Below, in pieces: positions 14,601 through 17,600 of a stretch of 64,000 bases of DNA. The position numbers are program-made. Numbering within the stretch: position 1 is the first letter of the stretch; each line of letters starts with the position of its first letter. The DNA lies in NCBI GenBank assembly GCA_964483105.1, contig CAYZZU010000008.1, positions 20,642-84,641 of the forward strand. Direction: 5' to 3'. Source of the stretch: an uncultured Nitrospirota bacterium (GTDB lineage: Bacteria; CG2-30-53-67).

Positions 14601-17600
14601 GGAGGCCTCGGATCTAATTGAAAAGGTATCACAAAACACGTTTCATCACAAGATTTTTGTCCCATTCTTCCCGAGTGGAGAGGAGCGGGAAATGGACCGT
14701 TTGGTATCCGTTGGAGTTGCACGCTTTTCGTGTGGGGATGGCGGGTCCAAGAGTCAGTTTTTCTCCGCGTTCTTCCGGAGGGGTTCCTGCTTCGGCGGGG
14801 GATTCATTCTCCGAAGGCGTTTTTTCAATTCCGTTCGTTCATCCACCGAGAGTTTGCTCCATCTCTTCAGTCCATGGAGCACCTTCGCCCTTTCTCCGGG
14901 AGGAAGTCCTTGGATCCGTTTCAGGATTTTTAAGATCCTCTTCCGTTTCTCCGGCGGGAGGCGAAGAAACCGGTGGAAGTTTCTTTTGAGTCGGGCCCGT
15001 TCTTCCGGGCTCATTTTTTTCCATTGTCTGAGCCGATGGAGAAGGACACGTCGCTCAGCGGGGGGGAGGTTCCGGAGGGCCCGGAGTCTGTGCATGGCTT
15101 CGATCCGCCGCCCCCGGGGGAGGCGGTCCAATCTCTCCTGCATCCGGACCCGTGGGTGTCCGAAATGCTGTGGTCGATGAGGGCGCGGATTCCGTGCAGA
15201 TGCCGGGGCGGGGATCAGCAGCAAAAGGCATAAGGCGATGACGATTTTTTTCATGGTGTATCGCCTCCTTGGTTTTCGGTTTCATCCTCCTGCCGAAGGA
15301 TTTCTTCCAGGACGTCCAGGACTTCCAGCACTTCCATGTTTTTCAGAAGATCCATGTTTTCCGCTGTTTCCCATTCTTCTTCCGGGGAGAACTTGGAAGG
15401 AGGCTTCTCTTTGGAGGGAAGAACATGCAGTGACAGGACCCCCACAGCAAGGACGATCAGGATCGAGGCCAGCGCGGAGGCCCACCGGGTCGGGAATACT
15501 CTCCTGGATCTCCCGCCTGCAGACTCCGCCTCGATTTGCCTGATTCCTCTGCGGACATGATTTTGCATCCGGTTCATTCTCTGCGGAGAGGGGTTGGGTT
15601 CGACATTCCTGGGGAGGGAATCGAAAAGCCTCCGTATCTTCCGATATTCCCTGCGGCAGGCGGGGCATCTCGAAAGATGAGTCCTGATCCTGTTTTGATC
15701 GTCTTGCCCCAACTCGCCGTAGTAGTATTCCGGGAAGCGTGTTCGAAAATTTTTACAGCGTTTCATGGCTGATCCTCTTCCGCCTGTTGCAGCCATTCCC
15801 TCAGGTTCCTGACGGCACGGAAAAGGTGAACCTTCACGGTACCTTCAGAGAGTCCAAGGATTTTCGCAATTTCCCGGATACGAAGATCCTGGAGGTGCTT
15901 GAAGACAAAAATTGTCCGTTGGCGTGTTGGGAGTCTTGAAAGAAGCGCTTGAAGCCTGCTATCCCATTCGGTCTGCTCCAGCATCTTGTCGGGGTTGACG
16001 CTCCAATGGGGGTCGGGTACGCTCTTTTCAATCGGATCGGCCGATTCATCCTCGTCTCGTAAAAAAGAAAGGAAACGGGTCCTGAACCGCTTCTTCCGGA
16101 GATGGTCACGGCAAAGATTCACCAGAATTCTGCAAAGCCAGGTGTAAAAAGCGGAATCCCCCCGAAATCCCTTCAGGGATCGATAGGCTTTCAAAAAAGC
16201 CTCCTGGGTCATATCTTCCGCCTCGGAGGCGTCATTGACGATCCGGAATGCGGCGAGGTAGGCCCGGTTCATGTATTTCTCCATCAGTTGATCATAGGCT
16301 GATGAATCCCCTTCGCGGACCCGACGGATCCATTCCTGGTCGTCAGCGGACATCTCCTCTTTCTCCCGGACCGGCGGTGGTTTCAACAGGTTTGCGGGCA
16401 TCCTAACGGGACATTTCCGGCTTGTCAAGCCTGACGCGGTCCGGGGGGTAGCCCTCCACTCCAGATTCATCTCATAATATAATAATAGACGCCCCGGCAC
16501 AATTTTGGTTTACAGGTCGGATAGACCGGATCTCTTTTCGGGAAAGATGAGCCCGTCGAACCAGACGATCTCACTTTTTTCCCCGACCTTGTCTTTGATG
16601 TTAGGCTGCGTGACAGGGGGGGGGATGCTCCCCCTGCTGGGGGGTCGGGTTTGCCGATCCTGTCGATCCGGTTCATCCTGTCGCTAATTTAGGGGGCAAT
16701 CCGGTTATTGCATCCTGACCTGCTTTGCAGTAGAATAGCGCCTTCCCGGAGAAAGGCGACGATCCGATGGAGTCGCCTGTACCTTCGATTGGTTGACCCG
16801 TCATATAGTCCGAGGGGGCGTTTCGTCTTGAAAGGATTGAGAAATGAAGTGTGAACATCTGAGAAATATTGCGATTATTGCCCATGTAGATCATGGGAAA
16901 ACGACCCTGGTGGACGGAATGCTTCGGCAGGCCGGGATCTTCCGTTCCAATGAAACGGTCCGGGAGCGGGTGATGGACAATATCGACCTGGAGCGGGAGC
17001 GGGGAATCACGATTATGGCCAAGAATGCCGCCGTGGAGTACAACGGGATTAAGATCAATATTGTCGACACACCTGGGCATGCGGATTTCGGGGGGGAGGT
17101 GGAAAGAACGCTGAAGATGGCCGATGGCGTCCTGCTGCTGGTGGATGCCTCGGAAGGTCCTCTGCCGCAGACCCGCTTTGTGCTGCAAAAAGCACTGGAA
17201 CTCAAGCTGCCCCCCATTGTCGTGATCAACAAGATCGACCGTGCTGATGCCAGGATTCAGGAGGTCATCAATGAGATTTACGATCTCTTCATCGATCTTG
17301 ACGCCACCGAAGAACAGCTCGATTTCCCGATTGTCTATACCGACGCCAAGCGGGGAATCGCAAAGCAGGAGCTGTCCGATGATACGGTCAATCTGAAGGT
17401 CCTCTTCGACCGGATCCTCGATACCATCCCCGCCCCCGACGGAGACCCGGACGGGGTTCTGCAACTCCTGGTCACCCATCTCGACTATAGTGACTATCTG
17501 GGAAGGATGGCCGTCGGGCGGGTTTTTTCCGGAACGGTCACGGTGGGAGATACCGTCGGGAGGATGACCGCGGAGGGAGAGGTCGCCCGGACACGGATCA

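What the first reader, a model, noticed from the sequence alone, without database searches (positions are those of the whole stretch)
16567..16683. Conserved structured element R1 upstream of two cold-shock-associated genes (typA and cspA)
An approximately 87-nt segment (16597-16683) recurs at 62849-62931 in the same orientation. Weaker similarity extends about 30 nt further upstream. Both copies lie upstream of, and on the same strand as, genes classically induced by cold shock: typA/bipA and a cspA homologue.

The core has two adjacent G-run/C-run hairpins. Their sequences differ between copies but stay complementary (GGGGGGGATGCTCCCCC/CCCCCTGCTGGGGGG versus GGGGAATTGCTCGCCCC/CCCCGCGGGGG), which is the covariation pattern of a functional RNA or protein-binding structure. 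This is followed by an invariant GTCGGGTTTGCC-ATCCTGTCGATCCGGTTCATCCTGTC with a direct ATCCTGTC repeat.

In copy A it ends about 25 nt before a good TTGCAT-17-TAGAAT promoter. It could be a cold-responsive operator or UP-like element, a small divergent sRNA, or a lineage-specific repetitive element.
Basis: seen in the sequence. Interest (0 to 1): 0.6.

Follow-up and report, generated by a model that had tools for sequence, protein, structure and literature searches.

The report
Interspersed mosaic repeat, not cold-shock element
The sequence shared upstream of typA and cspA is one block of a repeat that also sits next to unrelated genes in this uncultured Nitrospirota bacterium, so it is not a cold-shock switch; its only strictly conserved part is a 26-base array of three 9-base units that also occurs across many bacterial and archaeal phyla.

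Summary
The repeat is real. Copy A (16535-16682) and copy B (62788-62940) share about 150 nt and match nothing else in the window.

The cold-shock and covariation reading fails.
- Spurious ORF translations led to three more copies in the same sample set. They lie upstream of an ABC ATPase, upstream of a Mut7-C/K+ channel operon, and convergent with lemA.
- A sixth copy is known only as an ORF.
- A third CSD gene in the window has no copy.
- typA orthologues in three lineages at about 81% TypA identity have no copy.
- Across five copies, 0 of 38 predicted pairs show compensatory change.
- Fold energies match shuffled controls, and Rfam finds nothing.

The copies are mosaics. A common core carries optional 5' and 3' modules and nested hairpin repeats.

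Only ATCCTGTCGATCCGGTTCATCCTGTC is near-invariant (25/26 columns, against 56/92 in the rest of the core). Read on the other strand it is TTTTTG + 3 x (ACMGGAT NN). A scan of species-representative genomes found more than 118 such arrays, against about 2 expected. About half are in inverted pairs, and most are intergenic, in many phyla.

Best reading: a lineage-specific BIME/REP-like mosaic repeat built around one arm of a widespread, apparently undescribed repeat that probably binds a protein.

The parts
16535..16682 (+). R1 copy A: the core shared by all five located copies. It is the minimal version, with no 5' L-module and no 3' extension.
   Evidence: blastn boundaries against copies B, C, E and F; CM hit 16591-16689, 108.7 bits; alignment A6.
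16657..16682 (-). 26-nt array, three tandem 9-nt units. On the minus strand it reads GACAGGATG AACCGGATC GACAGGAT. It is the only near-invariant part of the family and corresponds to one arm of the cross-phylum ACAGGAT-triplet repeat.
   Evidence: 25/26 columns invariant in five copies, against 56/92 in the rest of the core, Fisher p=2e-4; genome scan.
16612..16643 (+). GACAGG followed by a G-run, C-run and G-run tract (two alternative short GC hairpins). It varies in length between copies.
   Evidence: no compensatory changes.
16683..16693 (+). GCTAATTTAGG junction motif. It directly follows the array in copy A. In copies E and F it follows a roughly 125-nt 3' extension.
   Evidence: second A-F blastn segment.
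16708..16736 (+). Promoter-like TTGCAT-17-TAGAAT upstream of typA (8/12 consensus positions).
   Evidence: Read from the sequence; not listed by the consensus scan.
16844..18655 (+). typA/bipA, downstream of copy A.
   Evidence: Pfam GTP_EFTU, EFG_C and BipA_C; homologues named TypA.
15763..16353 (-). ECF sigma factor, divergent from copy A. Its own promoter-like site is at 16428-16400.
62788..62940 (+). R1 copy B: core.
   Evidence: (62843-62938, 102.9 bits).
62906..62931 (-). 26-nt three-unit array of copy B. On the minus strand it is preceded by CTTTTTG, the T-rich leader typical of the wider family.
62941..63089 (+). 3' extension shared by copies B and C only. It reaches the promoter-like TTGCTA-17-TATAAA at 63091-63119.
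   Evidence: B-C blastn segment 62575-63089; alignment A4; sequence.
62580..62716 (+). 5' 'L-module' shared by copies B, C, E and F and absent from A. It starts about 15 nt from the promoter-like site of the divergent gene.
62722..62804 (+). A nested repeat of a different family (D5/D4), lying between the L-module and the R1 core. A second copy at 63561-63667 brackets cspA.
   Evidence: the repeat finder D4 and D5, 96-97% identity.
63280..63480 (+). cspA-like CSD gene, 349 nt downstream of copy B.
62025..62528 (-). Metallophosphoesterase gene, divergent from copy B.

Best explanation
R1 is the common core of a lineage-specific, interspersed, non-coding mosaic repeat in an uncultured Nitrospirota/Thermodesulfovibrionales bacterium. 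It resembles BIME/REP elements.

Shown
- Five copies were located as DNA and a sixth is known only as an ORF. All come from one population, sampled in three JGI metagenomes and one NCBI MAG.
- Each copy is a different combination of modules: an optional 5' L-module, nested hairpin repeats of other families, the roughly 150-nt core, and one of two optional 3' extensions.
- The copies sit in intergenic DNA next to unrelated genes.
- The one part under visible constraint is a 26-nt array of three 9-nt units. On the minus strand this reads TTTTTG-ACAGGAT GA-ACCGGAT CG-ACAGGAT.
- That array is one arm of a repeat found in many bacterial and some archaeal phyla, often as an inverted pair of such arms.

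Inferred mechanism
- The 7-nt units are recognition sites for a sequence-specific protein, either a transposase or recombinase that spreads these elements or a chromatin or host factor.
- The rest of R1 (GC-run hairpins, flanks) drifts and is reshuffled by insertion and deletion of modules.
- Its position upstream of typA and cspA reflects where such repeats are tolerated, namely the promoter-distal DNA of divergent intergenic regions. It does not reflect shared cold-shock control.
For: More copies, unrelated genes
- A profile-free protein search with the translated element found spurious ORFs P0124 and P0127. A profile search added P0128 and P0129.
- Their contigs carry CM hits of 80-81 bits.
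- Copy C lies upstream of an ABC_tran gene.
- Copy E lies upstream of a Mut7-C gene and a K+ channel gene.
- Copy F is convergent with the 3' end of lemA, with no downstream gene.

Mosaic structure
- The pairwise blastn map shows a core shared by all copies, an L-module in B, C, E and F only, and 3' extensions shared by B with C and by E with F.
- GCTAATTTAGG lies directly after the array in A but after the extension in E and F.

Non-coding
- ORFs over different copies continue in three different frames after ...SPAG.

No RNA structure signal
- 0 of 38 predicted pairs are compensatory.
- Fold z-scores run from +1.3 to -1.4.
- Rfam gives no hit at the gathering threshold and only weak hits (E >= 0.3) in an E-value scan.

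Constraint confined to the array
- 25/26 columns are invariant, against 56/92 in the rest of the core, p=2e-4. Pairwise identity is 96-100% in the array and 71-95% elsewhere.

Array belongs to a wider family
- Features not in the search pattern are shared: G at position -1 in 96/121 arrays, a T-rich leader, and an inverted partner within 150 nt in 67/121 against a direct partner in 5/121.
- About 88% are intergenic.
- In 34 inverted pairs the 7-nt units are 96% complementary (partly by construction of the search), but the 2-nt spacers only 43%. The units are conserved, not a helix.
- The R1 model matches those loci only over the arm, model positions about 62-99.

Not conserved with the genes
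- typA upstream regions in Dissulfurispira thermophila and two other lineages lack it, and synteny differs.
- The window's third CSD gene lacks it.
Against: - Only about 110 kb of this organism's DNA could be examined, so genome-wide copy number and distribution are unknown.
- Four of the five located copies do lie upstream of, and in the same orientation as, a gene with a promoter-like site. All four copies whose 5' side is known face a divergent gene. A regulatory role at promoters is therefore not excluded.
- No terminal inverted repeats, target-site duplications, empty sites or partner transposase were found, so mobility is inferred, not shown.
- Copies C and F are on short contigs and are assigned to the same population only by sample and sequence similarity.
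- The protein proposed to bind the array is hypothetical.
Part of its hits are coding or simple tandem repeats, for example collagen-like GLT repeats and Actinomycete ACCGGATC arrays.
Confidence: 0.7

Rival explanations
1. R1 is a cis-regulatory DNA module. The three-unit array is an operator or activator site for a transcription factor that co-regulates the adjacent promoters. The regulon would include typA and cspA and might respond to cold.
For: - The array is under stronger constraint than its surroundings.
- Four of five copies lie upstream of, and co-oriented with, a gene that has a promoter-like site: A, B, C, E.
- The copies sit in divergent promoter regions.
Against: - The distance from the array to the -35 hexamer varies: 25, 159, about 163 and about 150 nt.
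- Copy F has no downstream gene or promoter-like site.
- The downstream genes are functionally unrelated.
- The third CSD gene has no copy.
- typA orthologues have no copy.
- The same array occurs across phyla, mostly next to gene 3' ends: 31 convergent against 13 divergent contexts.
Confidence: 0.15
2. R1 encodes a small structured RNA. This could be an sRNA, or a CsrA-type sponge, because the minus strand carries CAGGAUG-like GGA motifs 18 nt apart.
For: - The minus-strand units CAGGATG ... CAGGAT resemble the CsrB repeat CAGGA(U/C/A)G (my recollection of the CsrB literature, not tested).
- GC hairpins follow the array.
Against: - There is no covariation and no excess fold stability.
- Rfam finds nothing.
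- No promoter-plus-terminator pair is consistent across copies.
- In the wider family the units usually occur as inverted DNA pairs, which would bury the GGA motifs in a helix.
- The family also occurs in archaea, which as far as I recall lack CsrA.
Confidence: 0.05
3. The two window copies are attL/attR-like direct repeats bounding a 46-kb integrated island.
For: The two copies are in the same orientation, 46,252 bp apart.
Against: - The copies are only about 80% identical outside the array, whereas att duplications are identical.
- At least three more copies exist on other contigs.
- The part of the interval that was annotated holds housekeeping genes: IleRS, lgt, lspA and hisA/F.
- The whole interval was not screened for an integrase.
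Confidence: 0.02
4. R1 encodes a small protein, for example the 150-aa gene that JGI called over copy B on the minus strand.
For: - An ORF at 62602-63054 (minus strand) is called as a gene and is present in the protein collection.
- A 3-nt indel between A and B keeps the reading frame within the core.
Against: - ORFs over other copies leave the shared frame at different points and continue in three different frames.
- Copy A carries no called gene.
- The substitution pattern has no codon periodicity, and the invariant stretch is a contiguous 26 nt.
- No Pfam family is on record for the ORF called over copy B.
Confidence: 0.02

Closest known systems
BIMEs (bacterial interspersed mosaic elements) of enterobacteria
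   Same: - Extragenic.
- Several copies per genome.
- Each copy is a different combination of several short repeat families, here the R1 core, the L-module, D4/D5-type hairpins and two kinds of 3' extension.
- One short module is much better conserved than the rest.
   Different: - There is no sequence relationship to REP/PU units.
- The R1 copies seen sit mainly between divergent genes rather than at operon 3' ends.
- The conserved module is a tandem three-unit array, not a palindromic unit.
- Binding by IHF, gyrase or Pol I is unknown.
REP/REPIN elements mobilised by RAYT transposases (GTAG- and CGTC-tagged palindromes, PMC3733652)
   Same: - Short non-coding intergenic repeats with hairpin potential.
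- Specific to a lineage.
- The wider ACAGGAT-triplet family, like REPs, favours convergent and 3' intergenic regions.
   Different: - No conserved GTAG or CGTC tag.
- The conserved part is not a 20-40-nt palindrome.
- No RAYT gene was seen, and the genome is not available to look for one.
- The same 7-nt unit is shared across phyla, whereas REP sequences differ between lineages.
MITEs with outward-facing regulatory effects (Correia elements of Neisseria, ERIC, RUP)
   Same: - Size of 100-300 nt.
- Intergenic.
- Copies lie just upstream of promoters of unrelated genes.
   Different: - R1 has no terminal inverted repeats beyond a GACAGG/CCTGTC 6-mer.
- No target-site duplication and no empty sites were seen.
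- No parent IS is known.
ACAGGAT-triplet inverted repeats
   Same: - R1's invariant block is a full arm of this family: a T-rich leader, then G, then three 7-nt units with 2-nt spacers.
- It is nearly identical to arms in a Fimbriiglobus MAG (ATCCTGTCGATCCTGTTCATCCTGTC) and a Proteobacteria MAG.
   Different: - R1 has only one intact arm. The opposite arm is reduced to a single CCCTGTC unit.
- The 'loop' is a 45-50-nt GC-run tract.
- The middle unit is ACCGGAT.
- R1 carries about 90 nt of lineage-specific 5' sequence.
- Only one other MAG (GCA_024277725.1) shares the arm plus GCAAACCC plus GC hairpin arrangement.
cspA-type cold-shock cis elements (5'UTR thermosensor, cold box)
   Same: Only the neighbourhood is shared: one copy lies upstream of a CSD gene.
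   Different: - R1 ends 159 nt upstream of the nearest promoter-like site, so on that reading it lies outside the 5'UTR (transcription start not mapped).
- It is absent from the paralogous CSD gene.
- It is present at non-cold-shock genes.

Membership tests
Cold-shock cis-regulatory element | Associated specifically with cold-shock genes within the genome. | tested here: not met
   - Copies lie at an ABC ATPase, a Mut7-C/K+ channel operon and the lemA 3' end.
- The third CSD gene, 20637-20861 (minus strand), has no copy.
Cold-shock cis-regulatory element | Conserved upstream of orthologous genes in related genomes. | tested here: not met
   No R1 and no array upstream of typA in D. thermophila or in two other lineages at about 81% TypA identity. 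cspA orthologues were not examined.
Structured non-coding RNA | Base pairs supported by compensatory substitutions. | tested here: not met
   0 of 38 predicted pairs change on both sides in five copies; covariation term -0.12 kcal/mol.
Structured non-coding RNA | Folding more stable than composition-matched controls, or a match to a curated RNA family. | tested here: not met
   z-scores from +1.3 to -1.4 on both strands. No Rfam match at the gathering threshold, and the best E-value is 0.3.
MITE | Terminal inverted repeats at the element ends. | tested here: not met
   Only GACAGG...CCTGTC (6 nt) is inverted within the core. The 5' extension pairs with the array only through G-U pairs, so it is not a DNA inverted repeat.
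MITE | Target-site duplication, and empty sites in related genomes. | tested here: inconclusive
   - Element boundaries differ between copies.
- No flanking direct repeats were seen in R1 or in 34 inverted pairs of the wider family.
- All strain variants available carry the same copies.
REP/REPIN | A 20-40-nt imperfect palindrome with a conserved GTAG or CGTC tag (PMC3733652). | tested here: not met
   No tag is conserved across the five copies. CGTC is present in A only. The conserved block is a tandem array, not a palindrome.
REP/REPIN | A cognate RAYT gene in the genome. | not testable with these tools
   Only about 110 kb of this organism could be retrieved, and no transposase-like gene was noted in it.
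BIME-like mosaic repeat | Extragenic clusters combining several distinct short repeat families in variable arrangements. | tested here: met
   Module map of the five copies; nested D4/D5 repeat in copy B; other hairpin repeats in copies E and F.
BIME-like mosaic repeat | Binding of host proteins (IHF, gyrase, Pol I). | not testable with these tools
   Needs biochemistry.
ACAGGAT-triplet repeat (defined here) | T-rich leader, then G, then three ACMGGAT units at 9-nt spacing. | tested here: met
   On the minus strand, copies B and E read cTTTTTG ACAGGATGA ACCGGATCG ACAGGAT. Copy C has G for A at the first base of the first unit (GCAGGAT), F has a TTTCTG leader, and A lacks the leader.
ACAGGAT-triplet repeat (defined here) | An inverted partner arm within about 150 nt. 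| tested here: not met
   Only one degenerate unit (CCCTGTC) lies opposite the arm in R1. 45% of family members in other genomes also lack a partner.
CsrB/RsmZ-type protein-sponge RNA | Multiple GGA motifs exposed in loops of a discrete transcript with its own promoter and terminator. | tested here: inconclusive
   GGA-containing units are present (sequence). No promoter or terminator is consistent across copies. Transcription was not testable.

The most novel reading that the evidence does not exclude
The ACAGGAT-triplet arm (T-rich leader, then three 7-nt units at 9-nt spacing) may define a so far undescribed superfamily of short interspersed elements that spans phyla and both prokaryotic domains. 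Its units would be the recognition array of an unidentified, horizontally spreading DNA-binding protein or transposase. R1 would then be a one-armed derivative that places this binding array next to promoters, including those of typA and cspA, and so could couple them to that factor.
Probability: 0.25. Interest if true: 0.6.

Novelty: new variant of a known kind. Interest (0 to 1): 0.35.

Why it matters
For this window, the result removes a tempting but wrong annotation. There is no evidence for a shared cold-shock operator or RNA upstream of typA and cspA. The 150-aa 'gene' called over copy B is very likely a spurious ORF across repeats.

More broadly, mosaic intergenic repeats are poorly catalogued outside Proteobacteria. 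They cause contig breaks and false gene calls in MAGs.

The side result may matter more. A near-identical 25-33-nt array of 7-nt units recurs in intergenic DNA from Planctomycetota to Methanoperedens. Its 7-nt units are conserved while the 2-nt spacers between them are not. That suggests a widely shared sequence-specific factor or mobile element, and I found no description of it in Rfam or in the searchable literature.

Tried and rejected
Collection scans
- Genome collection, 38-specified-base R1 pattern: 0 hits.
- Metagenome collection, the 26-mer: 0 hits.
- Metagenome collection, an R1-specific degenerate 26-mer: 0 hits.
- The window's own JGI contig is not in that metagenome collection, so these zeros say only that R1 is rare elsewhere.
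- Viral-contig scan for the triplet: dominated by multi-hit arrays that look like collagen-like GLT coding repeats in giant-virus bins. I did not inspect them and judged the scan uninformative.

Protein searches and look-ups
- A chimeric six-frame protein query with X linkers returned nothing. It also missed the 150-aa ORF that is in the database, so that negative is technical and I discarded it.
- Look-ups that failed: my longest-ORF version of a gene near the window start, and P0124.

Database and literature checks
- Rfam on the window, on the element and on 16 wider-family loci: only a fluoride riboswitch and tRNAs.
- Literature searches by sequence and by keywords: nothing relevant. The REP survey PMC3733652 does not contain the motif.
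- Plasmid BLAST of a wider-family palindrome: two unannotated hits.

Ideas considered and dropped
- Neighbour genes of the wider family show no recurrent family, so no candidate partner gene emerged.
- A sigma-54 or ECF promoter within the array: hexamer spacings do not fit (read from the sequence).
- DnaA, Pho or Spo0A boxes: unit sequence or periodicity does not fit (my own knowledge of those consensus sequences).
- attL/attR of an island, and a small protein gene: see the rival explanations.
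Full report

Yes, in its core. The 39-nt block GTCGGGTTTGCCNATCCTGTCGATCCGGTTCATCCTGTC occurs only at 16644-16682 and 62893-62931, both on the plus strand. None of 100 shuffles produced a match. The 5' block GATGTTAGGYTGCGTGACAGGGG occurs only at 16597-16619 and 62849-62871. 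The repeat finder reports both as its top direct-repeat families.

Pairwise alignment and blastn extend the similarity to about 16535 and 62788, giving a core of about 150 nt. The downstream genes are a TypA/BipA GTPase and a 66-aa CSD protein. TTGCAT-17-TAGAAT lies 25 nt after copy A. It matches only 8/12 consensus positions, and the scan did not list it.

**2. Source organism**

The window is part of JGI contig Ga0256915_100014 (160.8 kb). Near-identical contigs occur in two other JGI samples and one Logan assembly. The closest TypA outside this population is 81% identical (Dissulfurispira thermophila). Other top hits are Thermodesulfovibrionales/Nitrospirota MAGs. The organism is therefore an uncultured Nitrospirota lineage with no close sequenced relative.

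**3. The structure and covariation claim fails**

- Both strands of both copies fold no better than dinucleotide shuffles, with z from +1.3 to -1.4.
- The differences in the G-run and C-run tract are length changes of homopolymer runs.
- In the five-copy alignment, RNAalifold predicts 38 pairs. None has a change on both sides, and the covariation term is -0.12 kcal/mol.
- Rfam has nothing there. The best E-value hit is 0.3.

**4. Finding more copies**

DNA pattern scans of the public collections gave nothing. The metagenome collection evidently lacks the window's own contig.

Gene callers place spurious ORFs over intergenic repeats, so I used translations instead.

- I translated copy B on the minus strand, where JGI calls a 150-aa gene (P0121). 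I searched the 1.84-billion-protein representative library with it.
- Two short ORFs (P0124, P0127) are obvious translations of further copies.
- A profile search added P0128 and P0129, plus weaker hits from other organisms that share only ...LFDRMNRIDRI....
- Contig look-ups gave three new loci from the same sample set, with CM scores of 80-81 bits.

The new copies are:

| Copy | Locus | Downstream context |
|---|---|---|
| C | L014 | 163 nt upstream of TTGACA-17-TATCAT and an ABC_tran gene; divergent from a GST_N-like gene |
| E | L015-L017 | about 150 nt upstream of TTGACA-18-TATTTT and a Mut7-C gene plus K+ channel gene |
| F | L018 | between a divergent mlaE-like gene and the 3' end of a convergent lemA; no downstream gene or promoter-like site |
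| D | not retrieved | known only as ORF P0124 from an NCBI MAG |

Within the window, the third CSD gene (20637-20861, minus strand) has no copy. Upstream regions of typA in D. thermophila and two other lineages have neither R1 nor the array, and gene order differs.

**5. Anatomy**

The blastn map shows a mosaic.

- All five copies share the core: A 16535-16682, B 62788-62940.
- B, C, E and F also share a 5' 'L-module' (B: 62580-62716). It starts about 15 nt from the promoter-like site of the divergent gene. Copy A lacks it.
- Between the L-module and the core lie different nested hairpin repeats. In B this is a D5/D4 element whose twin sits just after cspA.
- After the array, B and C share one roughly 150-nt extension. 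E and F share another of about 125 nt.
- That second extension ends at GCTAATTTAGG. In A the same motif follows the array directly.
- ORFs over different copies leave the common frame at different points and continue in three different frames, so the element is non-coding.

**6. What is constrained?**

Only the 26-nt ATCCTGTCGATCCGGTTCATCCTGTC.

- 25/26 columns are invariant, against 56/92 in the rest of the core (Fisher p=2e-4).
- Pairwise identity is 96-100% in the array and 71-95% in the rest.
- It consists of three tandem 9-nt units. On the minus strand, in copies B and E, it reads cTTTTTG-ACAGGAT GA-ACCGGAT CG-ACAGGAT; C, F and A depart from this at the leader or at the first base of the first unit.

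**7. The array is not private to this lineage**

The weak protein hits P0130-P0133 prompted a scan of 185,579 species-representative genomes with ACMGGATNNACMGGATNNACMGGAT.

About 2 are expected from the pattern's roughly 39 bits.
- The loci come from Verrucomicrobiota, Planctomycetota (including Gemmata algarum), Chloroflexota, Acidobacteriota, Desulfobacterota, Gemmatimonadota, Bacteroidota, Pseudomonadota, and Methanoperedens/Methanosarcinales MAGs.
- A few hits are coding or simple tandem repeats, namely Neobacillus collagen-like repeats and Actinomycete ACCGGATC arrays.

The rest share features that the pattern did not specify:

- G at position -1 in 96/121 arrays, and a T-rich leader.
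- An inverted partner arm within 150 nt in 67/121, against a direct partner in 5/121.
- About 88% are intergenic. Contexts are 31 convergent, 36 co-directional and 13 divergent.
- No gene family recurs next to them, and no target-site duplications are visible.
- In 34 inverted pairs the 7-nt units are 96% complementary (partly by construction of the search). The 2-nt spacers are only 43% complementary. The units are being conserved, not a helix, which argues for protein recognition rather than an RNA stem.

The R1 model matches these loci only over the arm (model positions about 62-99). The exception is one MAG, GCA_024277725.1, which shares arm + GCAAACCC + GC hairpin.

Rfam, the searchable literature and annotated plasmids gave no name for this family.

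**8. Mechanism**

Shown:
- R1 is a multi-copy, non-coding, modular intergenic repeat.
- Its only strongly conserved block is one arm of a widespread unit-array repeat.

Inferred:
- The units bind a sequence-specific protein. This could be a transposase or recombinase responsible for spread, or a host or chromatin factor.
- The remaining sequence drifts and is reshuffled.
- The positions upstream of typA and cspA reflect tolerance of insertions in promoter-distal DNA between divergent genes.

I put 0.7 on 'generic mosaic repeat, no cold-shock-specific role', and roughly 0.5 on the protein-binding sub-claim.

The main rival is a real operator or activator array (0.15). In its favour:
- The array is under stronger constraint than the rest of the core.
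- Four of five copies are co-oriented with a downstream promoter-like site.

Against it:
- Spacing to the promoter-like site varies from 25 to about 160 nt.
- Copy F has no downstream gene.
- The flanked genes are unrelated.
- The wider family prefers gene 3' ends.

The sRNA or CsrA-sponge, att-site and small-protein readings are each at or below 0.05.

**9. Comparison with known systems**

R1 works most like a BIME or REP-type mosaic repeat, or a promoter-proximal MITE.

- It fails the defining tests for MITEs: no terminal inverted repeats, and no target-site duplication seen.
- It fails those for REPs: no GTAG or CGTC tag, no palindromic unit, and RAYT presence is untestable.
- It meets only the descriptive BIME criterion of mosaic composition.
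- It meets the first but not the second feature of the ACAGGAT-triplet family defined here.

I therefore rate it a new variant of a known kind. As a candidate cold-shock element it is ordinary and refuted. The cross-phylum array is the part worth following up.

Noticed in passing
Genome-collection loci L019-L136 (for example L053:415-480, L090:5825-5893, L125:370-435); window 16657-16682 and 62906-62931: Arrays of a T-rich leader, then G, then three ACAGGAT units at 9-nt spacing recur in intergenic DNA of many bacterial phyla and of Methanoperedens/Methanosarcinales. They often form inverted pairs 10-120 nt apart. More than 118 loci were found against about 2 expected. The 7-nt units are conserved but the 2-nt spacers are not complementary. 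No name was found in Rfam or in the searchable literature.
   Followed up: partly
window 62722-62804 and 63561-63667: Two 96-97% identical copies of another hairpin repeat (...GCTCAGGGCGAACGG-N17-CCGTTCGYGGTGAGC...) bracket the cspA gene, 839-863 nt apart. The 5' part of the R1 core (GGTGAGCTCAGTCGAAC...) looks like a degenerate tail of this repeat type.
   Followed up: partly
window 62580-62716; L014, L015 and L018: A roughly 135-nt 'L-module' is shared by four of the five R1 loci. In copies B and F, where it was checked, it starts about 15 nt from the promoter-like site of the divergently transcribed gene. Its role is unknown.
   Followed up: partly
window 62602-63054 (minus strand): JGI calls a 150-aa gene here (P0121, a singleton cluster with no Pfam hit). 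It runs entirely across repeat modules. Equivalent ORFs over other copies (P0124, P0127-P0129) change frame, so it is very likely a spurious gene call.
   Followed up: yes
window 37186-37251 (minus strand): A fluoride riboswitch (RF01734, 40.4 bits against a gathering score of 34) lies just upstream of the minus-strand ORF 35261-37165.
   Followed up: no
window 20637-20861 (minus strand): A second CSD gene is 73% identical at the DNA level to the cspA gene at 63256-63480, including 24 nt upstream of the start codon. It has no R1 copy. It lies about 2 kb beyond the 3' end of typA (18655), past the intervening ABC-F-type ATPase gene.
   Followed up: partly
window 16400-16428 (minus strand) and 15763-16500: A strong promoter-like site (TTGACA-17-TAGGAT, 10/12) lies inside the longest ORF (245 aa, GTG start) of the ECF sigma gene. 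This favours the shorter 196-aa call (15763-16353). A zf-HC2 anti-sigma gene follows.
   Followed up: partly
L012:15040-16092 compared with L011:15010-15393: The two sample variants of the contig differ about 5 kb downstream of cspA. One has a 350-aa minus-strand ORF where the other has a MopE-like gene. This may be a strain-level insertion or rearrangement.
   Followed up: no
L257:4100-4200 (GCA_024277725.1, contig JAJRUP010000096.1): This is the only other genome found with the R1-like arrangement of arm + GCAAACCC + CCCCGGCGGGG hairpin. It sits between a peptidase gene and a PhdYeFM/PIN toxin-antitoxin pair, next to a different hairpin repeat.
   Followed up: partly
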